Below are positions 4,548 through 19,639 of a stretch of 60,892 bases of DNA, piece after piece. This DNA is from an uncultured bacterium. GTDB lineage: Bacteria; Methylomirabilota; Methylomirabilia; Methylomirabilales; CSP1-5. The stretch lies in NCBI GenBank assembly GCA_964429865.1, contig CAYSDK010000001.1, positions 1 to 60,892 of the forward strand, given 5' to 3'. Position 1 is the first letter of the stretch. Each line of letters opens with the position of its first letter. The notes under the pieces were generated by a model that was given only the letters and a program-made list of their open reading frames with translations, was not told the DNA's origin and did no database searches. Both the position numbers and the translations under genes were made by a program.

Positions 4548-4551
4548 CGAC

Positions 4552-5346: not shown

Positions 5347-6486
5347 ATGGATCTCGGGTTGAGCCCACGGCAGGAGATCTTCCGGGACATGGTCCGGGAC
5401 TTTGCCGAGACAGAGGTGGCGCCCCGGGCCGCCGCCGTCGATGCAGAGGCGCGTTTCCCCGCCCAGACGATCAGGATGATGGGAGCGCTCGGCCTCATGG
5501 GGGTCGCCATCCCGGAAGAGTATGGCGGAGCGGGCGCGGATACGATCTGCTATGTCATCGCCATTGAGGAGATCAGCCGCGCCTGCGCCTCCACCGGGGT
5601 TATCATGTCGATCAATAACTCCATGGTCTGCGACCTCGTCCACAAGTTCGGCGATGAGCGGCAGAAGCGACGGTTCTTGATCCCTCTCGCCCGGGGTGAG
5701 CAGCTGGGCTGTTTCTGCCTGAGCGAGCCCGACGCCGGCTCCGATGCGGGCAATCTGCGCGTCACCGCGCTGGCCGAGGGCGATCACTTCGTCCTGAACG
5801 GAGTCAAGAATTTCATCACGAACGGCCGCGAGGCGGATATCGCCATCGTGTTCGCCACGGTCGACCGCCAGCTCAAGCACAAGGGGATCTCTGCCCTGGT
5901 CGTCGAGAAGGGGACGCCGGGATTTCAGGTGCTCAAGGAGGAGAGCAAGCTGGGGGTCCGGGGCAGCAGCACGTGCCAGCTTCTCTTCGAGCATTGCCGG
6001 GTCCCCCGGGAGAACCTCCTGGGAGAGATCGGCGAGGGCTTCAGGATCGCCATGGCCTCCCTCGATGGAGGCCGGATCGGGATCGCCGCACAGGCGGTCG
6101 GAATCGCCCGCGCCGCCCTCGAGGCCTCTCTCCAGTACGCCCGGGGCCGCGTCCAGTTCGGAAGGCCCATCGCCTCCTTTCAGGCCATCCAGTTCCTCCT
6201 CGCGGATATGGCGACCCGCGTCGATGCCGCGCGTCTCCTCACCTACCGGGCCGCCTCTCTGAGAGATTGCGGGGCCCCATACACCGCGGAGGGCTCCATG
6301 GCCAAGCTCTCTGCGTCGGAGGTCGCCATGTGGGTGACCACCAAGGCCATCCAGATCTATGGGGGATACGGGTATATCACTGACTACCCGGTCCAGCGCC
6401 ACTTCCGGGACGCGAAGGTCACCGAGATCTACGAAGGGACTTCAGAGATCCAACGGCTGGTCATCGCCGAACATCTCCTGGGATAG
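5347..6486 (+). CDS. short-chain (butyryl-type) acyl-CoA dehydrogenase
   Basis: ACAD N/M/C domains: CFCLSEPDAGSDA, KNFITNG, and YEGTSEIQRLVIA at the C-terminus. Good SD. Confidence 0.9.
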   Translation: MDLGLSPRQEIFRDMVRDFAETEVAPRAAAVDAEARFPAQTIRMMGALGLMGVAIPEEYGGAGADTICYVIAIEEISRACASTGVIMSINNSMVCDLVHKFGDERQKRRFLIPLARGEQLGCFCLSEPDAGSDAGNLRVTALAEGDHFVLNGVKNFITNGREADIAIVFATVDRQLKHKGISALVVEKGTPGFQVLKEESKLGVRGSSTCQLLFEHCRVPRENLLGEIGEGFRIAMASLDGGRIGIAAQAVGIARAALEASLQYARGRVQFGRPIASFQAIQFLLADMATRVDAARLLTYRAASLRDCGAPYTAEGSMAKLSASEVAMWVTTKAIQIYGGYGYITDYPVQRHFRDAKVTEIYEGTSEIQRLVIAEHLLG

Positions 6487-6509
6487 CCCCTGGAAGAATC
6501 GGGGACGTG

Positions 6510-7307
6510 ATGCGCATCGTCGTCTGTGTCAAACAGGTCATCGACCCAGAGCTTCCCGCCAGTCAGTTCCGCATCGATGCGGAGTCCAAACGGCAGCGGC
6601 CGAATGGCCACCCCCTCGTCATCAGCCCGTATGACGAGAATGCCCTGGAGGTTGCCCTCACGCTTAAGGAGAAGACGGGCGGCACGGTAGCGGTGGTGAG
6701 CGCGGGGGAGCCGTCGGCGATCAGCGCGCTTCGCAAAGGGCTCGCCATGGGCGCGGACGAGGCCGCCTTGATCAGCGATCCCGCCCTCGCCGGATCGGAT
6801 GCCTTCGGCCTCGCCGTCGCCTTGGCCCGCGGGATACAGAAACTCGGCACCCCCGATCTGGTCCTGTGCGGCTGTGAGTCCGGGGACTGGGCCGACAGGA
6901 CCGTGGGTCCCATCCTGGCCGAGGCGCTCGATATCCCATGCGTCTCCTTTGTGGCCCAGGTGGAGGCGCAGGACGGCCGGCTGCGCATGCGGCGCGTCGT
7001 GGAGGAGGGCTACGAGATCTGGGAGGGCGCGCCACCTCTGTTGCTCACCATTCTCAGTCACGAGTCGAATGTCCCCAGGTATCCAAAGGTCAAGGACATC
7101 ATGACCGCCTCCCGGCGATCGATCCCGACGTGGTCAGCCGGCGACCTGGGCGTCGAGGCCGGCGATATTGGGAAGGCGGCCATGCGAACAGAAGTCCAGC
7201 AGCTCACGCTTCCGAGTCGAGAGTCCCGCTGTGAGTTGCTGGACGGCCAGCCGGCGCAGCAGGTCACGACCCTGATCACGAGACTCCGCGAGCGGAAGGC
7301 GATCTAG
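6510..7307 (+). CDS. etfB: electron transfer flavoprotein beta subunit
   Basis: MRIVVCVKQVIDPE N-terminus typical of EtfB. A GTG at 6507 is an alternative start. Confidence 0.9.
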   Translation: MRIVVCVKQVIDPELPASQFRIDAESKRQRPNGHPLVISPYDENALEVALTLKEKTGGTVAVVSAGEPSAISALRKGLAMGADEAALISDPALAGSDAFGLAVALARGIQKLGTPDLVLCGCESGDWADRTVGPILAEALDIPCVSFVAQVEAQDGRLRMRRVVEEGYEIWEGAPPLLLTILSHESNVPRYPKVKDIMTASRRSIPTWSAGDLGVEAGDIGKAAMRTEVQQLTLPSRESRCELLDGQPAQQVTTLITRLRERKAI

Positions 7308-7309
7308 CC

Positions 7310-8290
7310 ATGCCCGGCATCCTTGTCCTCGGCACGATCGAGAACGGGGTCCCATCCCGCTCAACACTGGAGCTCTTGACCGGCGCGAAGAGACTCGCTG
7401 CGGGGCTTCAGGAAGGTGTCTCTGTCGGACTCCTGGGGCCAGGGGGTGCGGCGTCGCTGTACCGTTACGGGGTCGAAGTCGTCTACCGGGCCAATGATCC
7501 GCTCCTGAAGGAATATCAGGCGGATCTGTACCTGCTGGCGCTCCAGCGGATCGCCCAGGCCGCCGGCGCCAGGGTTCTCCTGCTGCCCGGAGACTCCCTC
7601 GGCCGGGACCTCGCCGCTCGCCTCGCCTTTCGCCTCAAGGCAGGCGTCGTCACGGACGTGATCGAGATTGACATCGAGGGCTCCGAAAAGATGCCGCGCT
7701 TCACACGCCCCGCGTACGGGGGCAAAGCGGCGGCGGTCATCGTTCCCAAGCGCTTTCCCGTCGTAGTGACCTTGAAGCCGCGGACCTTCGATCCCGCTGG
7801 ACCTGCGGGCCAGGGGGAAGGGAAGGAGGTCCCGGTCGAGATCTCATTGGATCCGGCCCAGGCCCGCACCCGGATGGTGGAGCGGGTCCAGGAGGAGACG
7901 ACGGGGGTCAAGCTCGAGGATGCACGGGCGGTGGTCTCCGGTGGCCGTGGACTCGGAGGGCCCGAGGGCTTTACCCTCCTGGTAGAGTTAGCCCGCATCC
8001 TTAAGGGGGCGGTGGGGGCGTCCCGGGCTGCGACCGATGCCGGGTGGGTTCCCTCATCGATGCAGGTCGGCCAGACCGGCAAGACCGTCAGCCCGGATCT
8101 CTATATCGCCGTGGGCATCTCGGGTGCGACCCAACATGTCGCGGGGATCAGCGGCGCCAGGACCATTGTGGCCATCAACGCCGATCCGGAGGCCCCCATC
8201 TTCAAGGTGGCTCACCTGGGGATCGTGGGGGATTACAAGGCCGTTCTCCCTCCCTTGATTGCGAAGTGCCGGGAACTCATGGGGAGTTGA
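7310..8290 (+). CDS. etfA: electron transfer flavoprotein alpha subunit
   Basis: C-terminal FAD-binding signature [28 protein letters not shown]. Directly follows etfB. Confidence 0.9.
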
Positions 8291-8293
8291 AGC

Positions 8294-10267
8294 ATGGAGC
8301 GCATCGCCTCGCGGGAGATCTACTGGAACATCCCGGAGCACCTGCTTCTCTACGTGCTGCTCCTGCCTTTCCTTGCTGTCTTCCTGTACGGGTGCTACCG
8401 ACGCTTTGGTGCTCTCCTGCTGGGGAGGAAGGGGGTACGGCTTGGTCAGCCGAAGGAGCGCCTGAAGGCCTTTGTTGCCCAGGCCCTCCTGCAAGGGCGG
8501 ATCGCCACAGAGCGGTATTCAGGGGTCATGCATCTCACCCTTTCCTGGGGATTTCTCGTCCTCTTCATTGCCACCACTCTCGTGGCCTTTCAGGACTACT
8601 TCGGCCTTCCCGTCCTCCAGGGTCGCTTCTACCTCTACTTCATGTCACTCACCGTGGACCTCTTCGGCGTCGCGGCGCTCTTGGGGACGCTGATGGCGGT
8701 CCTCCGGCGCTTCCTCCGTCCTCCGGCCCGCCTGGTGGAGCCGCGGCACGCCGACGGTTTCGGCTGGCTCCTCCTGCTCTTCTTAGCCGTCCTGGTGACT
8801 GGATTCCTCGTCGAGGGGCTCCGGATCATGGCGACGGCCGACCCATGGGGACCCTGGTCACCCGGAGGGTGGGTGACGGCGCTCCTCTTCCGGGGCATCG
8901 GCGTCGAGTATGCCCGGGCCTTTCACCAGGTCCTCTGGTGGGTCCATGCCGCACTCTCGTTCGGTTTCATTGCGGCGATTCCCTATACCGGCGTGCTTCA
9001 TCTCCTCACCGCCCCCGCCAACATCTTCCTGCGAAACCTCGAGCCCTCGGGTGTCGCAAGCCCCTTGGCGGTCGAGGCAGAGAAGCTCGGGGCCTCTTCG
9101 ATTCGGGATTTCTCATGGAAGGCGCTTTTGGATCTATACGCCTGCACCGAGTGTGGCCGATGCCAGGCGGTCTGTCCCGCCTGGACCACGGGAAAGCCCC
9201 TCACCCCCAAGGGGGTCATCCTCGATCTCCGGGACCACTTGACCAAGGTGTACCGGGGCGAGGAGACGCGGCGCATGGTGGGCGAGGTGATCACCGAGGA
9301 TGTCCTCTGGGCCTGCACGACGTGCGGGGCGTGCCATGAAGCCTGTCCGGTCCTGATCGAACCGATTCCGAAGATCCTGGAGATGCGCCGGCACCTGGTG
9401 ATGGAAGAGGCGACCTTCCCGGAGCAGATGCAAGAGACCCTCCGGAGCCTGGAGACGCGCGGGCACCCTTATAAGGGGGTAAGCGCCGGACGGACCGACT
9501 GGACCAAAGGGTTGCGGATTCCAGAGGCGGCGAAGCTCAAAGAGGTCGAGCTGCTCTTCTGGGTGGGCTGTGCGGGCGCCTTTGACGAGCGAGGGCAGCA
9601 GGTCACCCGGGCGATGGCGCAGGTGCTGGAGGCGGCGGAGGTGGAGTTCGCAATCCTGGGCAATGAAGAGCGGTGCACCGGAGATCCGGCCCGGCGGATC
9701 GGGAACGAGTATCTCTTTCAACTCCTCGCCCAGGAGAATATCGCAACACTCAATCGCTACCGGGTGAAGAAGATCCTGACCACCTGCCCGCACTGCTTCA
9801 ATACGATGAAGAACGAGTATGGCCAGTTCGGCGGGGAGTTCGACGTGGTGCACCACAGCCAGTTCATCGCCCACCTGCTGCGGGAGGGGCACCTGGGCCT
9901 GCGAAAACGATTCAGCGGGACGGTGGCCTTTCACGATCCGTGCTACCTCGGCCGCCACAACGGGATCTACGATGATCCGCGGTCGGTGATCGATCACTTT
10001 CCAGGGCTGCAGCGGGTGGAGATGCCCCGATGTCGCGAGAAGGGGTTTTGCTGCGGCGCCGGCGGCGGACTGATGTGGATCGAGGAGCGGATCGGCAAGC
10101 GAATGAATCTTGAGCGAACGGACGAGCTCCTGCAGACGGGAGCGGCGGTGGTGGCCACGGCCTGCCCGTTCTGCCTGACGATGATGACCGACGGCATCAC
10201 CGTGCGCGGGAAGAACCTCGCGGTCAAGGCGTTAGACCTGGCGGAACTGGTGGTGCGCGCGTTGTGA
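8294..10267 (+). CDS. membrane-anchored Fe-S oxidoreductase (NarI/DsrM-like TM domain fused to an HdrD/GlpC-like 2x[4Fe-4S] + two CCG domains); probable Etf:quinone oxidoreductase
   Basis: N-terminal ~250 aa contain several hydrophobic helices with conserved His. Ferredoxin motifs [12 protein letters not shown] and [15 protein letters not shown]-type motifs [16 protein letters not shown] and CPFCLTM. Located immediately after etfBA. Confidence 0.8.
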
Positions 10268-10326: not shown

Positions 10327-11244
10327 ATGAGGATTGTGTCGTTATTGCCCAGCGCGACGGAGATCGTCTATCTGCTGGGACTGGGGGATCACCTCACCGG
10401 AGTGAGCCACGAGTGTGATTATCCCCGGGCGGCGCTTGGCAAGCGCAAGATCATTGCCCCTGCCTTCGAGAGCTCCGGGCTCAGCAGTCAGGAGATCGAC
10501 GGCAGTGTCCGGGCCTTCCTGGGGCGAAATGAGGGGATCTATCGGATCGATTTCGAGGCCTTGAAGGCGGCCGATCCCGACCTGATTGTGACCCAGGAGC
10601 TGTGTGATGTCTGTGCCGCCCCTTACCAGGATGTCGTGGAGGCGGCGACACACCTTTCGCGAAAACCCGAGATCCTTTCCCTGAACCCGCACCGTCTCGG
10701 GGATGTGCTCCAGGATGTCGAGCGGGTCGGGGAGGCGACGGGACGATTCCGCGAGGCAACGCAGGCTGTCGCCTCGCTCACCGAACGGATCGATCGCGTC
10801 GAGAAGCGGGCGGCCAACGCCAAGACCCGGCCACCCGTGGCGTGTCTGGAGTGGCTGGACCCGATCATGGCCTCGGGCCACTGGGTCCCAGAGATGGTGG
10901 CCCTGGCTGGCGGCAGAGAACCACTCGGAAAGGCGGGGGAGCCATCGGAACGGGTGCAGTGGGAGCGGGTCCTCTCCTGTGCACCCGAGATCCTGATCCT
11001 CATGCCCTGCGGCTTTTCCGTAGATCGGACTCTGGACGAGATCCACCTCTTGACCAATCGTCCGGGCTGGGAGGGCCTGCCGGCAGTGAGGCGGGGCAAG
11101 GTCTTTGCCGTGAACGGTCACGCCTACTTCAGCCGATCGGGACCGCGCCTGGTGGACGGAACCGAGATCTTGGCTCATCTCGTGCATCCGGAACTCTTCC
11201 GGGACCCGATTCCGGCAGGGGCAGCAACAACCGTTGACCGATGA
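10327..11244 (+). CDS. BtuF/FecB-type (periplasmic-binding-protein fold, cobalamin-binding-like) protein without a signal peptide
   Basis: It starts directly with the first strand-helix of the fold (MRIVSLLPSATEIVYLLGLGDHLTGVSHECDYP). No hydrophobic or basic leader and no lipobox. 305 aa. Confidence 0.7.
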   Translation: MRIVSLLPSATEIVYLLGLGDHLTGVSHECDYPRAALGKRKIIAPAFESSGLSSQEIDGSVRAFLGRNEGIYRIDFEALKAADPDLIVTQELCDVCAAPYQDVVEAATHLSRKPEILSLNPHRLGDVLQDVERVGEATGRFREATQAVASLTERIDRVEKRAANAKTRPPVACLEWLDPIMASGHWVPEMVALAGGREPLGKAGEPSERVQWERVLSCAPEILILMPCGFSVDRTLDEIHLLTNRPGWEGLPAVRRGKVFAVNGHAYFSRSGPRLVDGTEILAHLVHPELFRDPIPAGAATTVDR

Positions 11245-11298
11245 CCGGGGACCGATGACCGATGACGGATAACCGACGGCCGATGAACGATGACCGGG
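11236..11298 (+). repeat. heptanucleotide tandem array B (9 in-phase heptads, consensus GACCGAT)
   Basis: The heptads are gaccgat gaccggg gaccgat gaccgat gacggat aaccgac ggccgat gaacgat gaccggg. The array spans the TGA stop at 11242-11244 and the first codons of the mutase ORF. Confidence 0.85.
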
Positions 11299-12983
11299 AA
11301 GAGATAAAGCGGATCGAGGAAGCCGCGAGGGCCTGGGAAGCTGAAGTCCTGGATCCCGCGCTCGAGAGGTCGCCCGAGCGGGCCCGGGAGTTCCGGACCG
11401 TTTCGGGGCACCCCATCCGCAGGCTCTATACGCCCACCGATCTCGCCGACTTCGACTACACCCGAGACCTCGGCTTTCCGGGCCTCTCTCCCTTTACGCG
11501 GGGTGTCTACCCGACCATGTACCGGGGCAGGCTCTGGACCATGCGGATGTTCGCTGGGCACGGGGCCCCTGAGGAGACGAATCGGCGGTTCAGGTATCTC
11601 CTGGCACAGGGGCAGACCGGTCTGTCGGTCGCCTTTGACCTGCCCACCCTGATGGGGTACGACTCGGACCATCCGATGTCGCGAGGGGAGGTGGGGAAGT
11701 GCGGGGTGGCCGTCGACTCGCTGGCGGATATGGAGATCCTCTTCGACGGGATTCCGCTCCAGGACGTTACCACCTCGATGACCATCAACTCTCCGGCCGC
11801 GGTGCTCTGGGCCATGTACCTCGCGGTCTGCGAGAAACAGGGGGTGCCCTACGACCGCATCGGCGGCACCCTCCAGAATGACATCCTCAAGGAGTTCATC
11901 GCACAGAAGGAGTACGTCTTTCCCATCGAGCCCTCGATGCGCCTCGTGGTGGATACGATCCTCTTCGGGGCCCGACATCTGCCCCGGTGGCATGCGGTCA
12001 GCATCAGCGGCTATCACATCCGAGAGGCGGGGTCCACCGCGATCCAGGAACTGGCCTTTACGGTGGCCGACGGCATGGCGTATGTCGAGGCCACCATGAA
12101 GGCGGGGCTCGACGTCGATGCCTTCGCCCCTCGCCTCTCTTTCTTCTTTAATGTCCACAACGATTTCTTTGAAGAGATCGCCAAGTTTCGGGCCGCCAGG
12201 CGCGTGTGGGGGAAACTCATGCGAGAGCGGTACGGGGCAAAAGATCCGCGATCCTGGCTGCTCCGGACCCACGCCCAGACGGCGGGATGTGCGCTCACCG
12301 CCCAGCAACCGTACAACAACGTCGTTCGGGTAGCCATGCAGGCCCTGGCAGCAATCCTGGGCGGGGTGCAGTCACTCCACACCAACGCCCTGGATGAAAC
12401 GCGGGCCCTTCCCACCCAGGAGGCGGCGACGATCGCGCTCCGGACCCAGCAGATCATCGCTCACGAGACCGGGGTGACCCACACCATCGACCCCGTGGGG
12501 GGATCGTACTTCGTCGAAAGCCTCACGCGGGAGATCGAGGAGGAGGTCTGGAGCTATCTCCACAAGATCGATGACCTGGGGGGCATGGTCCGGGCGATCG
12601 AGCAAGGCTTCCCCCAGAAGGAGATTGTCGATGCCTCCTACCGGTACCAGCAGATGGTCGAGGCGGGGGAAGAGGTGGTGGTCGGCGTGAACCGGTTCGT
12701 CGCCGGGGCGGAGGAGCCGGTCTCCCTCCTTCGCATCGACCCGGAGCAGATTGCGGAGCAGCAGGTGGAGAGGATTCACCGCCTGAAGGGACGCCGGGAT
12801 AACGGAGGGGTCCAGAAGGCTCTGGACGGCCTCCGAAGGGCGGCAGAGGGGGAGGATCCCTGGGGTCAGGACCTCCTCATGCCTCGGATCCTCGAGGCGG
12901 TGCGGGCGTATGCAACCCTGGGAGAGATCATGGGGGTCTTTCGAGAGGCGTGGGGGGAGTACGTCGAAGCCGCCATCCTCTGA
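11262..12983 (+). CDS. B12-dependent acyl-CoA mutase, large (substrate-binding TIM-barrel) subunit; methylmalonyl-/isobutyryl-CoA mutase family
   Basis: Family motifs [51 protein letters not shown] and LHTNALDE. The start is ambiguous because it lies in heptad array B; an in-frame ATG also occurs at 11283. Confidence 0.88.
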
Positions 12984-13119
12984 TTGTCCATTGACGATCC
13001 AGTGAAAATGCGCTTTAAAGAGAGAAGGCGCTGTCTGCTTCAGGCAGCGGTGGATGACCACAAGCGGGGGGAAGGCGACCGGGGCCCTCTGCCAAGGATC
13101 GCCCCAGCTGAGCGATGCG

Positions 13120-13527
13120 ATGAGTGAAGAACGGAAGATCCGTGTCTTGGTGGCGAAACCGGGGCTCGACGGCCATGACCGGGGTGCCAAGGTGATTGCC
13201 CGGGCGTTCCGGGACGCGGGGTTCGAAGTGATCTATACCGGCCTTCGGCAGACGCCGGAGATGATCGTCAGCGCCGCGATCCAGGAGGACGTGGATGCCA
13301 TCGGCCTCTCCTGCCTCTCGGGAGCCCATATGTATCTCTTCCCCCGGATCGTAGAGCTGCTCCGTGAGCGTGGCGCGGACGATGTCGTCGTCTTTGGAGG
13401 CGGGACGATTCCCGACGAGGACATTGCAACCCTCAAGGAGGCAGGGATCGCCGAGATCTTTACTCCGGGAACCTCGACGTCGGTGGCAATCGATTACGTT
13501 CGGACGCACGTCCGCCAGCGGGCGTGA
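13120..13527 (+). CDS. acyl-CoA mutase small subunit (cobalamin-binding domain)
   Basis: [24 protein letters not shown] contains the DxHxxG B12-binding motif. GVSSL-type SCLSGAH and GGGTIP motifs. The ORF is open from 13054; the start is placed at ATG 13120 by comparison with typical N-termini. Confidence 0.85.
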
Positions 13528-13556: not shown

Positions 13557-14870
13557 ATGAGGCCCGTCTATGCGGTCTCGGGTGGTGTGTGCAAGTTCGC
13601 CAGGGCCCGCCCCGACCTCGACTTCCGGGGGATGGTCAAGGAAGCCTACGATTACGCCCTCACGGATCTCCACCTGACCCCCCAACACGCGCGGGAGATC
13701 GTCGACGGGACGATCTGCTCGTACTTCTCCGACCACTTCACCCGACAACTCAAGGCCGGCAGCATGGTGCAGGATTATCTCGGGCTCTGCCCCAAGCCTG
13801 GCAAGCGCATCGAAGGGGGGGGCGCGACGGGGGGCCTGGCCGTCCAGTCGGGCTGGGAGGCGGTGGCGTCGGGCCGGTTCGATATCTGCGTGGTGTACGG
13901 CTTCGAGACCATGTCGCGCGTCAATACCTGGAAGGGGAACGAGTTCATCGCCTTGGCCTCCGACACGAATTTCGATTACCCCGTCGGCGGCTTCTACTCC
14001 GGATACTACGCGATGATGGTGGTCCGCCACATGAAAGAGTTCGGGACCACCGTGGAGCAGATGGCGCTGGTGTCGGTCAAGAACCATCACAACGCCCTCC
14101 ATAACCCGTATGCCCAGAAACGGAGGCAGATCACGATCGAGGACGTGCGCCGGGCCGAGATGGTGGCCTGGCCGCTGACGATGCTTGACATTTGCGTCAT
14201 GTCGGACGGGGCGGCGGTGCTCATCCTCTGCAGCGAAGACGGGCTCAATACCTTGCACAGGGCCACGGGACGCACCCCGCTCCCTGCCAAGATTACCGGG
14301 GTGGGCGGTGGTCTCGACGCCATGCGGATGGCGGACCGGCCCCACGGGGAGGTGATTCTCCTGCCCCATGAGAGGCCGGAAGACTATCGGGGGCTGAAGT
14401 ATCCCGGGGTTCACTCCTTCCGGGCCGGGCGCGTGGCCGCCAAGGCCGCCTATCAGATGGCTGGAATCACGAATCCCCTTGAAGATTTAGACTTCATCGA
14501 GCTGCACGATGCCTACACCTCCTCAGAGGTCCAGACGTACGAGGACATGGGGCTCTGCAGGTACGGTGAGGGCGGAAAGTTCATCGAGAGGGGTACGCCC
14601 TTCATGCCGGCGGTCGATTACGGGTACCATTTCCCGGAACAGGGCCGGATCCCGATCAATCCCTCGGGTGGACTCATCGCCTGTGGCCACCCGGTGGGGG
14701 CGACCGGAATCATGCAGGGAGTGTTTGCCCTGTGGCAGCTTCAGGGGAGCATCCGCACGCACTTCGGGAGCGATGTCCTCCAGGTGAGGAATGCGAGGCG
14801 TGGAGCGATTCACAGCCACGCGGGCACCGGGACCTACGTGGTGATCTCGATCCTGGAAAGGGGCGACTGA
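13557..14870 (+). CDS. thiolase-fold (SCP-x/lipid-transfer-protein type) protein, apparently lacking the nucleophilic Cys
   Basis: SCP-x-type thiolase features: LDICVMSDGAAVLIL, NPSGGLIACGHPVGATG and HSHAGTG. At the position of the usual -ACASG- nucleophile loop the sequence is RIEGGGATGG. The start is set at ATG 13557, which has an upstream GGGGAAGTGGG SD. Confidence 0.75.
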   Translation: MRPVYAVSGGVCKFARARPDLDFRGMVKEAYDYALTDLHLTPQHAREIVDGTICSYFSDHFTRQLKAGSMVQDYLGLCPKPGKRIEGGGATGGLAVQSGWEAVASGRFDICVVYGFETMSRVNTWKGNEFIALASDTNFDYPVGGFYSGYYAMMVVRHMKEFGTTVEQMALVSVKNHHNALHNPYAQKRRQITIEDVRRAEMVAWPLTMLDICVMSDGAAVLILCSEDGLNTLHRATGRTPLPAKITGVGGGLDAMRMADRPHGEVILLPHERPEDYRGLKYPGVHSFRAGRVAAKAAYQMAGITNPLEDLDFIELHDAYTSSEVQTYEDMGLCRYGEGGKFIERGTPFMPAVDYGYHFPEQGRIPINPSGGLIACGHPVGATGIMQGVFALWQLQGSIRTHFGSDVLQVRNARRGAIHSHAGTGTYVVISILERGD

Positions 14871-14904
14871 TGCTTCCCTGTGTGAGGGGCGAGGGCTCAA
14901 GGCC

Positions 14905-15432
14905 GTGAGCGAGAACCGTGTGCCAGAGGAAGAAGAGGGGGCGGTCCTCTTCAGGGTACCGCTTCCGAAGGACCCGGGGGCGCTCAAGGACCTGACGCCC
15001 CTGATCATCAAGCACCACTATGAGATCGATTACATTCACAGCTACGCGCAGGACAGCCCCTTCTTTGCCGGGCTGGCCAACCAGCGACTTCTGGGGACCC
15101 GGTGCGGCAGCTGCAACTACACCTACGCGACACCGCGAGCGCATTGTATGGAATGCGGGCGACAGTGCGACTGGGTGGACCTTCCCCACGAGGGGCAGAT
15201 CCATACCTTTACCGTGTGTCACTACGGCAGTGAAGAGTTCCTGAAAGAGACCCCCTTCATTCTCGCCCTCATTGAGTTTGCCGGCGTGGATACCCTCTTC
15301 TTGACTCGGGTGGTCGGGCTCGACCCACAGGCCTCTTCGCTCGACTGGATCGGCATGGCCGTCAAGGCCAAATTCCGCCGGCTCTCCACGTTCCGTCCCA
15401 CCGACGTCTATTTCGTCCCCATCGGAACCTGA
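14905..15432 (+). CDS. DUF35 OB-fold / zinc-ribbon protein (thiolase-partner family)
   Basis: Zinc ribbon CGSCNYTYATPRAHCMECG followed by an OB-fold-like region. This is the typical pairing immediately downstream of an SCP-x-type thiolase-like gene. GTG start. Confidence 0.75.
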   Translation: MSENRVPEEEEGAVLFRVPLPKDPGALKDLTPLIIKHHYEIDYIHSYAQDSPFFAGLANQRLLGTRCGSCNYTYATPRAHCMECGRQCDWVDLPHEGQIHTFTVCHYGSEEFLKETPFILALIEFAGVDTLFLTRVVGLDPQASSLDWIGMAVKAKFRRLSTFRPTDVYFVPIGT

Positions 15433-15600: not shown

Positions 15601-16752
15601 ATGGACTTCACGCTGAACGAGACGCAACGGGCAATCCAAGGGGTGGTCAGAGACTTTGCACGCCGGGAGATCATTCCGAAGGCGGCGGGGTACGATCAGC
15701 GGGAGGAGTTTCCTTGGGAGATTATCCGAGGTGCGGCGAGCCTCGGCCTTCTCGGGATCCTGGTGCCGGAGGGGTATGGTGGGGCCGGGATGGACTACGT
15801 GAGCTACGTGGCTATCCTCGAAGAGCTCGGTCGGGCCGATGCCTCTGTTGCCCTCACCGTCGAGGCGCATAATTCGCTAGCCGTCAACCAGATCCTCCTC
15901 TTCGGAACCGAGGAGCAGAGGCGGCGGTATCTCCCCCCATTGGCGAGGGGAGAGATGCTTTCGGCCTGGGCCCTTACAGAGCCGAGTTCGGGAAGCGACG
16001 CGGCCGCGATGCGCACCACGGCCGTCCGTCAGGACGACGCCTATGTGCTCACCGGGACCAAAAACTTTATCACCTCCGGAAGCATCGCCGGGGTGTATGT
16101 GGTTCTAGCCCTCAGCGACCCGACCCGCGGCTCCCATGGCATCTCTGCCTTTATCCTGGAAAGGGGGGCGCCCGGATTCTCTGTGGGTCGGCGAGAGAAG
16201 AAGCTGGGGGTCCGCGCCAGCGACACCGCCGAGCTCATCCTGGATCATGTGCGCCTTCCGGCGGAGAACCTCCTGGGAAAGATGCACCATGGGTTCATCG
16301 ACGCCCTCCAGGTCCTGGACGGCGGGCGGATCGGCATCGCCGCCCTGGCCGTCGGGTTAGCCAGGGCGGCCCTGGAGGAGAGCATCGCGTACAGCAAGCA
16401 ACGGGTGCAGTTCGGCCAGCCGATCAGCGCATTTCAAGCCATCCAATTTAAGCTCGCAGACATGGCGACCGCCATCGACGCCGCGCGTCTCTTGACCTAC
16501 CGCGCTGCCCTGCTGGCAGATCAGGGAAAGCCCTTCACCAAAGAGGCGTCGATGGCCAAGGTCTATAGTGCCGAAGCGGCCGTGGCGGCGGCGATCCAGG
16601 CGATCCAGATCCACGGGGGGTACGGGTACACGGTCGAGTATCCGGTCGAGCGCTATCTCCGGGATGCCAAGCTCTGCGAAATCGGTGAGGGCACCTCGGA
16701 GATGCAGCGCCTCATCATCGCGCGAGAGATCGTGGGCCGGGAGTATGTGTAA
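15601..16752 (+). CDS. acyl-CoA dehydrogenase (second, paralogous short/branched-chain type)
   Basis: ACAD motifs [18 protein letters not shown] and [13 protein letters not shown]. Paralog of 5347..6486. Confidence 0.9.
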
Positions 16753-16841: not shown

Positions 16842-17780
16842 GTGGAGATCGTTGAAAGGATCCGACGGCAGGATGTCCGGGCGATCGCCCGTCTGATGTC
16901 CCTCGTCGAGAATAATGCCCCCGAGGCCACCGCCGCCCTGAAGGAACTCTACCCGATCACCGGACAGGCGTTCATCGTGGGGATCACCGGTCCACCGGGC
17001 TCCGGGAAGAGCACCCTGACCGATCAGCTCACGAAGGAGTTTCGCCGGGACGGAAAGACCGTCGGGATCATCGCCGTGGATCCCACCAGCCCCTTTACGG
17101 GGGGGGCGATTCTGGCCGACCGCATCCGGATGCAGCAGCACAGTCTCGATGCAGGGGTCTTCATCAGGAGCATGGCCACGCGAGGGCACCTCGGGGGGTT
17201 AGCCAAGGCCACGGGCGACGTGGTGAACGTGCTGGATGCGGCGGGGAAAGAGCTGATCCTCGTGGAGACCGTCGGGGTGGGCCAGGATGAGGTCGAAGTG
17301 GTCAAGACGGCCGATACGTGCGTCGTTGTCAGCGTCCCCGGTCTCGGGGACGATGTTCAGGCGATCAAGGCCGGGATCCTGGAGATCGCCGACATTTTCG
17401 TGGTCAACAAGGCGGACCGCGAGGGCGCGGACAAGACGGTGACAGAGCTCCAGGCCATGATGGGACTTGGCCCGGGGCGTTCGGACTGGAGCCCGCCCAT
17501 CCTGAAAACGGTCGCCACCCAGGGGCAGGGCATCGCCGAGTTGGCGCAGGGAATTTTCGCCCATCGGGCCCATCTGGACCGACGGGGCCTGCGGCAGATG
17601 CGCCAGCGCGAGCGGAGTCGTGCCCTCTTCCTCGAGCTGCTCCAGGAGCAGGGGACCCGGCGCCTGCTGGAGCGGGCGAGCGCCAACGGAACCCTTGAGC
17701 AGACGATCGAGCGCATCGCCAAGCGAGAGATGGACCCGTATTCCGCGGTCGAAGAGCTGCTCGCCAAGGCGGGCCTTTGA
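16842..17780 (+). CDS. meaB: MeaB/ArgK-type G3E GTPase (B12 mutase chaperone)
   Basis: P-loop GITGPPGSGKSTL, ETVGVGQ switch and VVNKADR motifs. GTG start with a GGGGA SD. Confidence 0.88.
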   Translation: MEIVERIRRQDVRAIARLMSLVENNAPEATAALKELYPITGQAFIVGITGPPGSGKSTLTDQLTKEFRRDGKTVGIIAVDPTSPFTGGAILADRIRMQQHSLDAGVFIRSMATRGHLGGLAKATGDVVNVLDAAGKELILVETVGVGQDEVEVVKTADTCVVVSVPGLGDDVQAIKAGILEIADIFVVNKADREGADKTVTELQAMMGLGPGRSDWSPPILKTVATQGQGIAELAQGIFAHRAHLDRRGLRQMRQRERSRALFLELLQEQGTRRLLERASANGTLEQTIERIAKREMDPYSAVEELLAKAGL

Positions 17781-17853: not shown

Positions 17854-18822
17854 ATGAAGATCCTTGCCTCGGGGGAAAGCGTCTACCACTGGGTCCACCC
17901 CGACGACTTTCGGGAGTGGGTCCGCCTGCACAAGAGTCGGGAGGCGACCGACAAGCTCATGACGGAACACGAGGCCGTCTCCCGCTTTGTGGCGGACGGG
18001 GACTACCTCGCCTACGATTTTTCTTCCCTCACCCGTGGTCCACAAGCCCTGGTCCGAGAAATCATCCGACAGCGCAGGCGGCACCTCTGGATCTGCGCCG
18101 AGTTTACCCTCCACGAGTCCGCATTACTGGTCGGCGCCGGGTGTGCCGATCGGATCGACGTGGGATTTTTGGGATACGGGGATTACATCGGGCGGGCGGT
18201 CGTGGAAGGAAGGGTGCGGGTCTTTGAATGGACCAACGGGGCCTTGGCCGCGCGGATGCTCGCCGGGGCGAGAGGACTTCCCTTCATGCCGATGCGAAAC
18301 CTTGTGGGAACGGATACCTTCGTCCGATCCGGAGCCAGGGTGGTGGCAGACCCCTTTGGCGCCGATCCCGTCTGCCTGGTCCCGGCGCTGCATCCGGATG
18401 TCTTCATCGTGCATGTCCACCAGGCGGACATCTCCGGGAATGCCCGCATCTTCGGGACCAACCTCTTTGCGCTGGAGGCGGCCATGGCCTCGAAGAAGGT
18501 GATCGTCTCTGCCGAGGAGATCGTCGATCCGCTCGAGTTTCGGAAGGAGCCGGCAAAGACGACGATCCCCCACTTCCTGGTCAGCGCCGTCGTGCACTTG
18601 CCGTTCGGGGCATATCCAGGTGGGGTGCCGGGGAGGTACGAGCTGGACCTCGAGCAAATCCAGCAATTGAACGCGATCGAGACTGAGGAACAGGTGCAGG
18701 CGTATCTCGAGGCCTTCGTGTACAGCGTGCGGTCCCACGCCGAACTGCTGGAGCAGAAAGTGGGGTGGGGACGGCTGGCGGACATGATCCGACGGGGGTC
18801 CATCAAAGAGGGATACTCGTAG
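17854..18822 (+). CDS. CoA-transferase subunit A (glutaconate/3-oxoacid CoA-transferase family I)
   Basis: The N-terminus MKILASGESVY...EAVSRFVADGDYLAYDF and the overall length fit GctA-like alpha subunits. The longer ORF from 17620 overlaps meaB and was trimmed. Confidence 0.75.
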   Translation: MKILASGESVYHWVHPDDFREWVRLHKSREATDKLMTEHEAVSRFVADGDYLAYDFSSLTRGPQALVREIIRQRRRHLWICAEFTLHESALLVGAGCADRIDVGFLGYGDYIGRAVVEGRVRVFEWTNGALAARMLAGARGLPFMPMRNLVGTDTFVRSGARVVADPFGADPVCLVPALHPDVFIVHVHQADISGNARIFGTNLFALEAAMASKKVIVSAEEIVDPLEFRKEPAKTTIPHFLVSAVVHLPFGAYPGGVPGRYELDLEQIQQLNAIETEEQVQAYLEAFVYSVRSHAELLEQKVGWGRLADMIRRGSIKEGYS

Positions 18823-18841
18823 CGAAGCGGCAGGGTCGCCC

Positions 18842-19639
18842 GTGACCGACACCATGGCCCGATTCACCGAGACCGAGTGCATGATCTGCCTCGCCGCCCG
18901 CCTGCTCGAAGACCGGAAGACGGTCTTCGTCGGCTGGGGCATTCCGCAGGTCGTGGCCATGCTGGCCGAGAGGCTGTACACCCCGAACCTCATCCAGGTC
19001 TTCGAGTTTGGCGCGATCGGTCCGCGGTCCCTGACCCCCTTTGTCCGCGGGACCATGGGGGGGCCTTCCAATGTCTATCGGTCGCTGCAGTGGACCACCA
19101 TGAACTGGGCCTTTGCCTACGCCGCCACCGGATATCTGGATTACGGAATGATCGGGGCGCTGCAGGTGGACCCGTACGGCAACGTGAACTCGACGCTGCT
19201 GGGGGGCAGTTACGACCGACCGAAACGGCGGTTCCCGGGAAGCGGGGGAGGGAACGAAGTTGCCTCGCTCTGCTGGAAGACGATCGTCGTGTTGAAGCAC
19301 GAGCCGCGTCGCTTCGTGGAGCAACTCGACTTCATGACCTCGCCGGGCTACCTGACCGGACCCGGGGCGCGGGAAGCCGCCGGTCTCCCCCGGGGAACCG
19401 GGCCCTACCGCGTCGTCACGTCGCAAGCCCTCTTTGGTTTTGACGACGAGACGAGGCACATGCGGCTCCTCGGCGTGTTGCGGGGACTGTCGGCGGATCA
19501 GGTGACTCGCGGGATGGGCTTTGCGCCCGTGGTGGCGGAAAAGGTCGAAGTGCTCGAGCCGCCGACGCGGGAGGAGTTGGCCGTCCTGCGCGAGGCAATC
19601 GATCCGTCGCGCATGATCATCGGGCGAGATGCCGGATGA
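18842..19639 (+). CDS. CoA-transferase subunit B
   Basis: ECMICLAARLLEDRKTVFVGWGIP... is the typical beta-subunit N-terminus. It follows subunit A. An alternative ATG lies at 18854. Confidence 0.75.
   Translation: MTDTMARFTETECMICLAARLLEDRKTVFVGWGIPQVVAMLAERLYTPNLIQVFEFGAIGPRSLTPFVRGTMGGPSNVYRSLQWTTMNWAFAYAATGYLDYGMIGALQVDPYGNVNSTLLGGSYDRPKRRFPGSGGGNEVASLCWKTIVVLKHEPRRFVEQLDFMTSPGYLTGPGAREAAGLPRGTGPYRVVTSQALFGFDDETRHMRLLGVLRGLSADQVTRGMGFAPVVAEKVEVLEPPTREELAVLREAIDPSRMIIGRDAG

What the first reader, a model, noticed from the sequence alone, without database searches (positions are those of the whole stretch)
13557..15432. The thiolase-fold protein appears to lack the catalytic cysteine and is paired with a DUF35 zinc-ribbon protein
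SCP-x-type thiolases carry the nucleophile in an -ACASG- loop at about residue 85-90. This protein has RIEGGGATGG there, with Gly at codon 13821-13823, while other fold motifs (GHPVGATG, HSHAGTG) are kept. Cys-less thiolase-like proteins that partner with DUF35 domains are known to act as retro-aldol/aldol-lyases rather than thiolases (the Ltp2-ChsH2 system of steroid side-chain degradation). This pair may therefore catalyse C-C cleavage of a 3-hydroxyacyl-CoA, not thiolysis.
Basis: partly seen in the sequence, partly recalled or inferred. Interest (0 to 1): 0.6.

Follow-up and report, generated by a model that had tools for sequence, protein, structure and literature searches.

The report
Cysteine-less thiolase-like enzyme replacing leucine-pathway lyase
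This gene pair encodes a thiolase-shaped protein that has lost its catalytic cysteine, plus a small zinc-ribbon partner. In related bacteria the same operon slot holds the classical carboxylase/HMG-CoA-lyase genes of leucine breakdown, so the pair probably cuts a 3-hydroxy-branched acyl-CoA by aldol chemistry.

Summary
ORF 13557-14870 is an archaeal/SCP2-type thiolase-fold protein. The nucleophilic Cys is Gly89 (codon 13821-23) and the HDCF Cys is Ala319. Both thiolase histidines are kept. ORF 14905-15432 is a C4 zinc-ribbon/OB DUF35 protein.

The Gly is invariant in 201 orthologs from more than ten phyla (68-97% identity). About 200 of 437 positions are at least 97% conserved. The family lies in a large, ancient Cys-less clade.

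The new result is about gene context. The pair sits in branched-chain acyl-CoA operons, just after the B12 subunit of an isobutyryl-CoA-mutase-type mutase. In Nitrospirota, NC10 and Acidobacteriota, otherwise matching operons carry methylcrotonyl-CoA carboxylase, a hydratase and HMG-CoA lyase in that slot. The two modules never occur together in 160 loci. Genomes with the pair lack HMG-CoA lyase, including this one.

The acyl-CoA dehydrogenase next to the pair has an isovaleryl-CoA-dehydrogenase-like pocket signature.

My best reading is a retro-aldol lyase of the leucine branch: 3-hydroxyisovaleryl-CoA to acetone plus acetyl-CoA. This is inferred, not shown. The catalytic tyrosines of Ltp2/Sal are not conserved, so it is not a member of that family.

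The scan met this family before on other DNA (e1-2378904). No paper on it was found.

The parts
3666..4547 (+). 3-hydroxyacyl-CoA dehydrogenase (hbd)
   Evidence: Pfam 3HCDH_N/3HCDH. Co-located with the pair in 25 of 80 ortholog loci.
4513..5334 (+). Enoyl-CoA hydratase (crotonase). Proposed to hydrate 3-methylcrotonyl-CoA.
   Evidence: Pfam ECH_1. Present in 29 of 80 loci. The role in the leucine branch is inferred.
5347..6486 (+). Short-chain acyl-CoA dehydrogenase (acd1, 'IYEGT' type)
   Evidence: Best PDB hits are Bcd/SCAD. C-terminal motif is EIYEGTSE.
6507..8290 (+). Electron-transfer flavoprotein beta (6507-7307) and alpha (7310-8290)
   Evidence: Pfam ETF and ETF_alpha.
8294..10267 (+). 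Membrane Fe-S oxidoreductase (CCG domains) that accepts electrons from ETF
   Evidence: Pfam CCG, Fer4 and Nitrate_red_gam.
10327..11244 (+). BtuF-like periplasmic binding protein
   Evidence: Pfam Peripla_BP_2.
11262..12983 (+). Acyl-CoA mutase large subunit, isobutyryl-CoA-mutase type
   Evidence: Pfam MM_CoA_mutase. Best PDB hit is HcmA 4R3U. Phe in [10 protein letters not shown] aligns with MCM Tyr89, Gln in IAQKEY with Arg207, and Ala in SVAFD with HCM Asp117.
13054..13527 (+). Mutase small (B12-binding) subunit
   Evidence: Pfam B12-binding and TIGR00640. Lies directly upstream of the thiolase-like gene in 57 of 80 ortholog loci.
13557..14870 (+). Cys-less thiolase-fold protein (437 aa), the proposed lyase subunit
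   Evidence: AlphaFold model has pLDDT 88.5. Best Foldseek match is 6ET9/6ESQ, TM 0.82/0.92.
13821..13823 (+). Gly89 codon (GGC) at the position of the thiolase nucleophile Cys
   Evidence: Gly in 201 of 201 orthologs.
14505..14516 (+). HDAY loop (His317-Tyr320). Corresponds to HDCF of SCP2/archaeal thiolases and to YDHF/YDCY of Ltp2/Sal.
   Evidence: Alignment to 6ESQ. Motif equivalence taken from PMC12329534. Invariant in orthologs.
14682..14693 (+). Cys376-Gly-His378-Pro loop (retained thiolase GHP histidine)
14905..15432 (+). DUF35 partner: about 55-aa N-terminal extension, C4 zinc ribbon, OB fold
   Evidence: Pfam zf-ChsH2 and OB_ChsH2_C. PDB hits are the 6ESQ_E, 6OK1_B and 9MYR_B DUF35 chains. 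Adjacent to the thiolase-like gene in 72 of 80 loci. Fused to thiolase-like proteins in P0130 and P0135.
15601..16752 (+). Acyl-CoA dehydrogenase acd2, 'IGEGT' type. Proposed isovaleryl/branched-chain acyl-CoA dehydrogenase.
   Evidence: Motif EIGEGTSE. All 18 ACADs directly downstream of DUF35 in other loci share it. The same motif occurs in ACADs next to HMGL/MCC genes. It is lost together with the pair in same-genus genomes.
16842..17780 (+). MeaB G-protein chaperone of the mutase
   Evidence: Pfam MeaB, 313 bits.
17854..19639 (+). Two-subunit CoA-transferase of the glutaconate-CoA-transferase type (A 17854-18822, B 18842-19639)
   Evidence: Pfam CoA_trans. Best PDB hits are GctA/GctB 1POI, and the catalytic Glu of GctB aligns.

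Best explanation
The two genes encode a heteromeric enzyme: a thiolase-fold catalytic subunit plus a DUF35 zinc-ribbon/OB subunit. It cannot perform thiolysis because it has no acyl-accepting cysteine. It keeps the two histidines that polarise the thioester and stabilise an acyl-CoA enolate.

It belongs to a branched-chain acyl-CoA catabolic operon. In that operon:
- An isobutyryl-CoA-type mutase with MeaB handles the valine branch.
- hbd, crt, acd1 and ETF form the common trunk.
- The CoA-transferase performs activation.

Together with the adjacent IGEGT-type acyl-CoA dehydrogenase (acd2), the pair forms a three-gene cassette. This cassette takes the place of the methylcrotonyl-CoA carboxylase / methylglutaconyl-CoA hydratase / HMG-CoA lyase module of leucine and isovalerate degradation.

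Proposed route:
1. isovaleryl-CoA to 3-methylcrotonyl-CoA, by acd2.
2. 3-methylcrotonyl-CoA to 3-hydroxy-3-methylbutyryl-CoA, by crotonase.
3. Retro-aldol cleavage to acetone plus acetyl-CoA, by the thiolase-like/DUF35 enzyme.

In step 3 the backbone NH of Gly89 would hold the tertiary hydroxyl, as in Sal and Ltp2. The GGG stretch would make room for the gem-dimethyl group. His317, Tyr320 or His421 would act as acid/base, and His378 as the enolate oxyanion hole.

Shown: loss of both cysteines, extreme conservation, pairing with DUF35, operon position, module swap, and complementary distribution.

Inferred: the substrate, the products and the catalytic roles of residues.
For: (1) Cys85 is replaced by Gly89 and the HDCF Cys by Ala319. 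His317 and His378 are retained. These residues are invariant in 201 orthologs, and 200 of 437 positions are at least 97% conserved. This argues for a precise catalytic function.

(2) DUF35 is adjacent in 72 of 80 loci and is fused in P0130 and P0135.

(3) Same-genus genomes G018, G025, G009 and G059 carry the same operon lacking exactly thl-like, DUF35 and acd2.

(4) In G124 (same order) the slot mutS-[X]-acd2-meaB holds HMG-CoA lyase, MCC beta, MCC alpha/BCCP and a cupin.

(5) In Nitrospirota the skeleton is BCKDH E1ab/E2 - thiolase - hbd - mutL - MBL - mutS - [X] - meaB - crt - PrpDBC. In 13 loci X is thl-like plus DUF35. In L254 and L267, X is MCC beta plus enoyl-CoA hydratase plus HMGL. 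The flanking genes are 60-88% identical.

(6) Acidobacteriota show both variants downstream of mutS.

(7) Of 80 ICM-type mutase loci, 7 have thl-like, 12 have HMGL and 0 have both. None of the 80 thl-like loci has HMGL.

(8) Genome level:
- G000 has no HMG-CoA lyase (its only HMGL-like gene is LeuA).
- G000 has no MCC; its only carboxyltransferase lies with biotin carboxylase and an MCM-type mutase.
- Five thl-type Nitrospirota genomes lack HMGL, and four of them lack MCC beta.
- Five HMGL-type genomes lack thl-like. Positive controls ring.
- In 151 NC10-phylum genomes thl-like (24) and HMGL (94) overlap in one genome.

(9) All 18 ACADs directly downstream of DUF35 have IGEGT, with Gly at the MCAD Tyr375 position. 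I recall this as the IVD specificity determinant. It is also the motif of ACADs next to HMGL/MCC.

(10) Canonical thiolases are present in the same operons (24 of 80 loci) or genome, so thiolysis is already covered.

(11) Precedent: Ltp2 and Sal are thiolase-fold, DUF35-bound retro-aldolases with Gly at the nucleophile position, whose NH binds the beta-hydroxyl (PMC12329534).
Against: - No biochemical data exist for any member; no paper on the family was found.
- The Ltp2/Sal catalytic Tyr and Tyr/Cys residues are not conserved, so the acid/base residues are guesses.
- The fate of acetone is unexplained. No acetone carboxylase gamma subunit was detected, and that search had no positive control. 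Losing three carbons per leucine is wasteful.
- In Nitrospirota operons no ACAD is nearby in either variant.
- One genome (G052) has both modules.
- The pair's tightest neighbour across phyla is the mutase B12 subunit, not acd2. This is not explained by a leucine-branch role.
- The slot can also be empty. Two unrelated accessory modules using one insertion point cannot be excluded.
- Related genomes are not independent samples.
Confidence: 0.45

Rival explanations
1. The enzyme is a retro-aldol or retro-Claisen-type lyase, but on a different 3-hydroxyacyl-CoA. Candidates are HMG-CoA (a non-homologous HMG-CoA lyase), 2-methyl-3-hydroxybutyryl-CoA (to acetaldehyde plus propionyl-CoA), 3-hydroxyisobutyryl-CoA or 3-hydroxybutyryl-CoA.
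For: The active-site evidence is the same as for the best explanation. HMG-CoA lyase is one of the displaced genes. Methylcitrate-cycle genes for propionyl-CoA follow in Nitrospirota operons.
Against: An HMG-CoA route needs methylcrotonyl-CoA carboxylase, which was not found in G000 or in four thl-type Nitrospirota genomes. Secondary 3-hydroxyacyl-CoAs can be handled by the hbd and canonical thiolase already in the operon, so no lyase is needed for them.
Confidence: 0.2
2. The protein is a non-catalytic scaffold (pseudo-thiolase). Together with DUF35 it assembles the mutase and/or beta-oxidation enzymes into a channeling complex. This would resemble the way DUF35 bridges thiolase with HMG-CoA synthase, or with the reductase and dehydratase, in archaea.
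For: DUF35 mediates multi-enzyme assemblies in archaea (bioRxiv 10.1101/2024.07.05.601840). The pair sits between the mutase B12 subunit and MeaB in 57 of 80 loci. More distant members of the Cys-less clade have also lost the histidines.
Against: In this ortholog group the remaining active-site residues (His317, Asp318, His378, HSH, NPSGG) are 100% conserved. The mutase operon exists without the pair in same-genus genomes. The pair is swapped with a catalytic module, not with another scaffold.
Confidence: 0.12
3. The enzyme is an acyl-CoA decarboxylase acting on malonyl-, methylmalonyl- or methylglutaconyl-type substrates. This would resemble KS-Q/chain-length-factor domains or the T. brucei SCP2-thiolase-like protein, and would be analogous to YgfG in the E. 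coli sbm operon.
For: From my own knowledge, loss of the nucleophile with retention of the two histidines is the classic decarboxylase signature in the thiolase superfamily. The gene order mutase / MeaB / CoA-transferase resembles the sbm operon.
Against: The adjacent mutases are Phe/Gln (ICM-type) in nearly all loci. They therefore lack the Arg that binds a substrate carboxylate. No carboxylase accompanies the pair. The displaced module contains a carboxylase rather than needing a decarboxylase.
Confidence: 0.06
4. The enzyme is a genuine 3-ketoacyl-CoA thiolase with an unconventional nucleophile. This would be Cys213 or Cys376, a DUF35 cysteine, or direct attack by CoA.
For: Cys213 and Cys376 are invariant. 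Cys376 lies two residues before the catalytic His378. The operon otherwise looks like C4 beta-oxidation.
Against: Cys213 and Cys376 also occur in relatives that keep the canonical nucleophile (P0161, P0170), so they are not relocations. Position 376 is Lys, Arg, Tyr or Ala in solved thiolases. Canonical thiolases are encoded in the same operons or genome. No coordinates of the model were available, so distances could not be measured.
Confidence: 0.05

Closest known systems
Archaeal acetoacetyl-CoA thiolase of the thiolase/HMG-CoA synthase/DUF35 complex (Methanothermococcus thermolithotrophicus, PDB 6ESQ/6ET9)
   Same: This is the closest solved relative by sequence (E 1e-45) and by fold (TM 0.82/0.92, rmsd 2.3 A). 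Both have a stand-alone DUF35 partner. Both share the HDxx and GHP loops.
   Different: Nucleophile Cys85 is Gly and the HDCF Cys is Ala. There are two conserved insertions at residues 254-292. No HMG-CoA synthase partner gene is nearby. The setting is a bacterial catabolic operon.
Steroid side-chain aldolases Ltp2-ChsH2(DUF35) (PDB 6OK1) and Sal-Shy(DUF35) (PDB 9MYR)
   Same: All have a thiolase fold, Gly at the nucleophile position and an obligatory DUF35 partner. The logic is the same: retro-aldol cleavage where the beta-carbon bears a tertiary hydroxyl that cannot be oxidised (PMC12329534).
   Different: Sequence similarity is distant (E 2.5e-12 and 3e-16; Foldseek rank 30 for 6OK1). The catalytic Tyr of YDHF/YDCY is His317 here. 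Sal's Cys304 position is Ala319. The GHP His is retained. DUF35 is a separate protein, not fused to a MaoC hydratase. The presumed substrate is a C5 acyl-CoA, not a steroid.
Methylcrotonyl-CoA carboxylase / methylglutaconyl-CoA hydratase / HMG-CoA lyase (Liu pathway)
   Same: It occupies the same operon slot in sister operons of Nitrospirota, NC10 and Acidobacteriota, and shows a mutually exclusive distribution. HMG-CoA lyase likewise cleaves a 3-hydroxy-3-methyl-acyl-CoA to a ketone plus acetyl-CoA.
   Different: There is no homology; the Liu enzymes are a TIM-barrel lyase and a biotin carboxylase. The Liu route spends ATP and bicarbonate and yields acetoacetate. The proposed route needs neither and would yield acetone.
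Benzoylsuccinyl-CoA thiolase BbsAB (PDB 7PXP)
   Same: It is a bacterial SCP2-type thiolase (HDAF loop) with a DUF35-type Zn-finger subunit in a modified beta-oxidation operon (E 6.6e-37).
   Different: BbsB keeps the nucleophilic Cys and is a true thiolase.
Cys-less thiolase-like proteins of unknown or unclear function: T. brucei SLP (5AB4) and Sulfolobus tokodaii ST0096 (4YZO)
   Same: Both have an SCP2/archaeal thiolase fold without the nucleophilic Cys. ST0096 aligns Ser at that position.
   Different: The loops differ (YDCF in SLP). They have no mutase or branched-chain operon context. Neither has an assigned physiological reaction.

Membership tests
Thiolase superfamily, SCP2/archaeal-type fold | Thiolase_N plus Thiolase_C(_1) domains with the five-layer fold | tested here: met
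   Pfam PF00108, PF22691 and PF02803 score over their cut-offs. The AlphaFold model has pLDDT 88.5. The top 50 Foldseek hits are all thiolase-fold proteins.
Catalytically competent thiolase (EC 2.3.1.9/2.3.1.16) | Nucleophilic Cys at the N-terminus of helix N-alpha3 (ACASG loop) | tested here: not met
   Gly89 aligns with Cys85 of 6ESQ. Gly in 201 of 201 orthologs.
Catalytically competent thiolase (EC 2.3.1.9/2.3.1.16) | Acid/base Cys (HDCF loop in the SCP2 type) | tested here: not met
   The loop is HDAY, with Ala319 invariant. The active thiolases BbsB and 7YVY also have HDAF, so this feature alone is not decisive.
Catalytically competent thiolase (EC 2.3.1.9/2.3.1.16) | Oxyanion-hole histidines (HDxx His and GHP His) | tested here: met
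   His317 and His378 align and are invariant.
Ltp2/Sal steroid aldolases | Gly at the thiolase nucleophile position, and a DUF35 partner | tested here: met
   Gly89. DUF35 is adjacent, and is fused in relatives. The feature is described in PMC12329534.
Ltp2/Sal steroid aldolases | Catalytic base Tyr as the first residue of the YDHF/YDCY motif | tested here: not met
   The equivalent HDCF-position motif is HDAY, with His317 in place of Tyr.
Ltp2/Sal steroid aldolases | Catalytic acid: Tyr344 (Ltp2) or Cys304 (Sal) | tested here: not met
   Sal's Cys304 position is Ala319. Tyr344 maps to about His378, but only by coordinate offset in the HMMER table. That mapping is weak, because no residue-level alignment to 6OK1 could be printed.
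DUF35 (ChsH2-type zinc ribbon plus OB fold) | C-x2-C...C-x2-C zinc ribbon followed by an OB fold | tested here: met
   PF12172 and PF01796 score over their cut-offs. The four Cys are kept in 64 of 66 orthologs.
NCBIfam NF004982 (PRK06365, 'thiolase domain-containing protein') | Score at or above the curated cut-off of 695 bits | tested here: not met
   650 bits and 651 bits. It is the nearest named model but lies below the cut-off. The name carries no function.
3-hydroxy-3-methylbutyryl-CoA (or other 3-hydroxyacyl-CoA) lyase activity | Measured retro-aldol turnover | not testable with these tools
   Requires an enzyme assay. It is inferred here only from gene displacement and active-site make-up.

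The most novel reading that the evidence does not exclude
A widespread leucine/isovalerate catabolic branch that needs neither biotin nor ATP. In it a histidine-based thiolase-fold/DUF35 aldolase cleaves 3-hydroxyisovaleryl-CoA to acetyl-CoA and acetone, replacing methylcrotonyl-CoA carboxylase and HMG-CoA lyase. The carriers would include Nitrospira, NC10, anammox bacteria, Acidobacteriota and Deltaproteobacteria. This would be an unrecognised microbial source of acetone. It would also be a third, mechanistically distinct recruitment of the thiolase fold for aldol chemistry.
Probability: 0.4. Interest if true: 0.8.

Novelty: new variant of a known kind. Interest (0 to 1): 0.68.

Why it matters
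- **Annotation.** Thousands of database entries of this family are labelled 'acetyl-CoA acetyltransferase' or 'propanoyl-CoA C-acyltransferase'. The protein cannot form the acyl-enzyme that thiolysis requires.
- **Distribution.** The family is very large. At least about 590 loci were found in species-representative genomes, and 5867 proteins at E<=1e-20. It is exceptionally conserved and has no characterised member.
- **Metabolism, if the proposed reaction is right.** Many environmentally important bacteria (nitrite oxidisers, NC10, anammox, iron and sulfate reducers) would degrade leucine-derived isovaleryl-CoA without carboxylation. They would release acetone, which is relevant to volatile-carbon budgets and to metabolic models of these organisms.
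- **Biotechnology.** The reverse reaction (acetone plus acetyl-CoA to 3-hydroxyisovaleryl-CoA) is a sought-after C-C bond formation for isobutene and isoprenol routes.
- **Enzymology.** It would show a His-based solution to thiolase-fold aldol chemistry, different from the Tyr/Tyr solution of Ltp2 and the Tyr/Cys solution of Sal.
- **Testability.** The hypothesis names a specific substrate and can be tested directly.

Tried and rejected
- **Decarboxylase analogous to E. coli sbm-ygfG.** Rejected as the lead hypothesis. The neighbouring mutases are Phe/Gln ICM-type, not carboxylate-binding.
- **Obligatory mutase subunit.** Rejected. The orthologous mutase operon occurs without the pair in complete same-genus genomes.
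- **The operon's only thiolase.** Rejected. Canonical thiolases are in the same operons or genome.
- **CoA-transferase genes as AibA/AibB-type methylglutaconyl-CoA decarboxylase.** They match glutaconate CoA-transferase better and keep the catalytic Glu.
- **First AlphaFold run.** With 11 sequences it gave pLDDT 60 and was not used. A 60-sequence alignment gave 88.5. Model coordinates are not exposed, so Cys-to-active-site distances could not be measured.
- **First tree.** It used a wrong outgroup: the longest ORF of L002 is a mutase. The tree was redone with a real type II thiolase.
- **Exact-sequence look-ups.** Two locus translations were not on record.
- **Papers not held.** The Ltp2, archaeal-complex and Vibrio acetone papers could not be read.
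- **Acetone carboxylase search.** A Hydantoinase_B gene is present, but no gamma subunit was found and there was no positive control. The result is inconclusive.
- **HMGL relatives fetched by similarity.** Most were actinobacterial Liu clusters without mutase, so they were uninformative for the swap.


Full report
**1. Observation**

ORF 13557-14870 (+) starts at an ATG behind a purine-rich ribosome-binding site and encodes 437 residues.
- Pfam finds Thiolase_N, Thiolase_C_1 and Thiolase_C.
- HMMER against all PDB chains puts the archaeal acetoacetyl-CoA thiolase 6ESQ_A first (E 1e-45). Next come Pyrococcus thiolase 7YVY, BbsB 7PXP_C and SCP2 thiolases. Ltp2 (6OK1_A) reaches only 2.5e-12.
- In the printed alignment RVEAACASGS of 6ESQ lies over RIEGGGATGG.
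- EVHDCFA lies over ELHDAYT, so the second catalytic cysteine is Ala319.
- The HDxx histidine (His317) and the GHP histidine (His378) are kept.
- ORF 14905-15432 has the ChsH2-type zinc ribbon and OB domains. It matches the DUF35 chains of 6ESQ, 6OK1 and 9MYR.

**2. It is a family trait, not a broken gene**

- A search of 5.8 billion proteins gave 5867 relatives at E<=1e-20. The best 120 are 71-95% identical. They come from NC10, Nitrospirota, Manganitrophus, Brocadiia, Deltaproteobacteria, Acidobacteria, Zixibacteria and others.
- In 201 aligned orthologs Gly88, Gly89, Thr91, His317, Asp318, Ala319, His378 and the HSH loop are 100% identical. In total 200 of 437 positions are at least 97% conserved.
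- Among representatives at 50% identity, 20 of 21 rows without Cys form one clade (98/96 support) when rooted with a type II thiolase from the same genome. The 21st row, with Asp, is a separate loss.
- Loss of the nucleophile is therefore ancient. It was followed by diversification, and the window's family is one highly constrained branch.
- Two relatives (P0130, P0135) are fusions of the thiolase-like part with the DUF35 OB domain.

**3. Is another cysteine in the right place?**

Only Cys213 and Cys376 are invariant.
- Both residues also occur in relatives that still have the canonical nucleophile (P0161: ACASG plus ACGHP; P0170: DCC plus CCGHP).
- Position 376 is Lys, Arg, Tyr or Ala in solved thiolases.
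- They therefore look like inherited features, not relocated nucleophiles.
- A good AlphaFold model was obtained (pLDDT 88.5, pTM 0.92). Its closest structures are 6ET9/6ESQ (TM 0.82/0.92, rmsd 2.3 A). Ltp2 is at rank 30.
- Coordinates are not exposed, so distances could not be measured. This part of the refutation test remains open.

**4. Comparison with the known thiolase-fold aldolases**

According to PMC12329534:
- Ltp2 uses Tyr294 of a YDHF motif and Tyr344.
- Sal uses Tyr302 and Cys304 of YDCY.
- These motifs correspond to HDCF of SCP2 thiolases.
- Both enzymes have Gly at the nucleophile position, and its backbone NH binds the beta-hydroxyl.

The window protein shares the Gly and the DUF35 partner, but its motif is HDAY and it keeps the GHP histidine. 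The catalytic residues of Ltp2/Sal are thus not conserved. Membership in that family fails. A similar mode of action remains possible with other acid/base residues; the candidates are His317, Tyr320 and His421.

**5. Context in the window**

The co-directional genes are:
- hbd 3666-4547
- crotonase 4513-5334
- acd1 5347-6486
- etfBA 6507-8290
- membrane Fe-S oxidoreductase 8294-10267
- BtuF-like protein 10327-11244
- mutase large subunit 11262-12983 and B12 subunit 13054-13527
- the thiolase-like/DUF35 pair
- acd2 15601-16752
- MeaB 16842-17780
- a glutaconate-CoA-transferase-type transferase 17854-19639

.

By alignment to 1REQ and 4R3U, the mutase has Phe at MCM Tyr89, Gln at Arg207 and Ala at HCM Asp117. 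That is the isobutyryl-CoA-mutase signature. Almost all mutases next to the pair in other phyla share it. The genome's two other mutases are Tyr/Arg (MCM-type).

**6. Context elsewhere**

In 80 ortholog loci the neighbours are:

| Neighbour | Loci (of 80) | Offset from the thiolase-like gene |
|---|---|---|
| DUF35 | 72 | +1.3 kb |
| Mutase B12 subunit | 57 | -0.4 kb |
| Mutase large subunit | 46 | not recorded |
| ACAD | 41 | not recorded |
| MeaB | 31 | not recorded |
| crt | 29 | not recorded |
| hbd | 25 | not recorded |
| Canonical Cys-bearing thiolase | 24 | not recorded |

.

In Nitrospiraceae the operon is E1alpha-E1beta-E2 of a 2-oxoacid dehydrogenase, thiolase, hbd, mutL, an MBL-fold protein, mutS, thl-like, DUF35, MeaB, crt, PrpD, PrpB-like, a citrate-synthase-family gene (PrpC-like) and an acyl-CoA synthetase. 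That is a branched-chain amino-acid catabolic super-operon.

**7. The decisive comparison**

- (a) Four same-genus genomes carry etfBA-EMO-BtuF-mutL-mutS-meaB-coatAB-hcyMT at 72-89% protein identity. They lack exactly thl-like, DUF35 and acd2. The three genes therefore form one cassette, and the mutase does not need them.
- (b) In G124 (same order) the slot between mutS and the acd2 ortholog/MeaB holds HMG-CoA lyase, MCC beta, MCC alpha/BCCP and a cupin.
- (c) In two Nitrospirota loci (L254, L267) the slot between mutS and meaB holds MCC beta, an enoyl-CoA hydratase and HMG-CoA lyase. In thirteen sister loci it holds thl-like plus DUF35. The flanking genes are 60-88% identical.
- (d) Acidobacteriota show mutL-mutS-...-MCCbeta-HMGL-hydratase in six loci, and mutL-mutS-crt-thl-DUF35 in L211.
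- (e) Counts: of 80 ICM-type loci, 7 have thl-like, 12 have HMGL and none has both. None of the 80 thl-like loci has HMGL.
- (f) Whole genomes:
  - G000 (93.6% complete) has no HMG-CoA lyase. Its single HMGL-like gene is LeuA at 32092-33636.
  - G000 has no MCC. Its only carboxyltransferase lies beside a biotin carboxylase and an MCM-type mutase.
  - Five thl-type Nitrospirota genomes lack HMGL, and four of them lack MCC beta.
  - Five HMGL-type genomes lack thl-like. Positive controls rang.
  - In 151 genomes of the phylum, thl-like (24 genomes, families f1-f5) and HMGL orthologs (94 genomes, f5-f7, f9, f10) overlap only in G052. This last contrast largely follows phylogeny, so it is weak on its own.
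- (g) All 18 ACADs directly downstream of DUF35 carry IGEGT. Of the 48 ACADs lying upstream of the pair, 40 carry IYEGT. IGEGT also marks the ACADs beside HMGL/MCC in Actinobacteria and G124. From my own knowledge of the human IVD structure, Gly at that Tyr position widens the pocket for the 3-methyl branch.

**8. Mechanism proposed**

The displaced module turns 3-methylcrotonyl-CoA into acetyl-CoA plus acetoacetate by carboxylation, hydration and retro-aldol-type cleavage of a tertiary 3-hydroxyacyl-CoA. The simplest carboxylase-free equivalent has two steps:
1. Hydration of 3-methylcrotonyl-CoA by the operon's crotonase.
2. Retro-aldol cleavage of 3-hydroxy-3-methylbutyryl-CoA to acetone plus acetyl-CoA.

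This is the same logic that makes Ltp2 necessary in steroid side-chain degradation: a tertiary alcohol cannot be oxidised to the ketone that a thiolase needs. The Cys-less active site keeps what this chemistry needs, namely enolate stabilisation by His378/His317 and the NH of Gly89 for the alkoxide. It lacks what thiolysis needs. All of this paragraph is inference.

**9. Weak points**

- No assay has been done.
- The fate of acetone is unknown.
- The pair's closest and most conserved neighbour is the mutase B12 subunit, which the model does not explain.
- The slot can be empty.
- One genome has both modules.
- Acetone formation from leucine is reported for Vibrio and Pseudomonas (cited in PMC13677872). 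I could not read the primary paper, and no link to this family is known.

**10. Rivals**

The rivals considered are a lyase on another hydroxyacyl-CoA, a scaffold, a decarboxylase and an unconventional thiolase. They are weighed in the dedicated fields.

**11. Novelty**

- No paper on this family was found.
- NCBI names it only 'thiolase domain-containing protein', and the nearest model NF004982 is missed by 45 bits.
- The scan saw the family before on other DNA (e1-2378904) and also suspected aldol-type cleavage.
- The module swap with MCC/HMGL and the specific substrate proposal are new here.

Noticed in passing
window 11262-12983: The mutase large subunit reads [10 protein letters not shown]. 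Phe aligns with MCM Tyr89, so together with Gln at Arg207 it is ICM-type. The Met (usually Gln) and His (usually Phe) in this loop occur only in the own genus.
   Followed up: partly
G000 contigs C49:8098-12949 and C14:961-8702: The genome has two further acyl-CoA mutases with the Tyr/Arg (MCM-type) signature. One lies beside a carboxyltransferase and a biotin carboxylase (probably propionyl-CoA carboxylase). The other lies between two canonical thiolases and an ACAD.
   Followed up: partly
L254:11626-12468; L118:17586-18428; Nitrospirota loci L059-L087: An MBL-fold hydrolase of about 280 aa recurs inside these operons. In Nitrospirota it sits between the mutase large and small subunits. It is present in both the thl-like and the MCC/HMGL variants. 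Its function is unknown.
   Followed up: no
L227:12207-14009: A delta-proteobacterial operon carries a divergent Cys-less paralog (42% identity, VEGGGGTGG) with its own DUF35 in the same slot: mutS-thl'-DUF35-acd-meaB.
   Followed up: no
L231:3753-13550: A Bathyarchaeota contig has an ICM-type mutase, MeaB and an adenosyltransferase next to two thiolase-like/DUF35 pairs. One pair is Cys-less (SGGATP) and one has EAACCSSG.
   Followed up: no
window 44341-46107: A TPP-dependent enzyme with weak matches to TPP_enzyme_N/M/C. It is not assigned. It might be worth checking as a possible ketone or 2-hydroxyacyl-CoA enzyme.
   Followed up: no
window 13814-13822: A run of G residues (GAA GGG GGG GGC) encodes the Gly87-89 stretch. 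The protein-level GGG is conserved in orthologs, so it is not an assembly artefact.
   Followed up: yes
window 19636-20583: A stand-alone homocysteine S-methyltransferase domain gene ends the operon. It is kept in same-genus operons that lack the cassette. Together with the BtuF-like gene, this suggests a cobalamin-related theme.
   Followed up: no
PDB 4YZO (Sulfolobus tokodaii ST0096): This solved 'thiolase-like protein' aligns Ser at the nucleophile position (DNTSGSGG). It is therefore another Cys-less relative with a structure but no assigned reaction.
   Followed up: no
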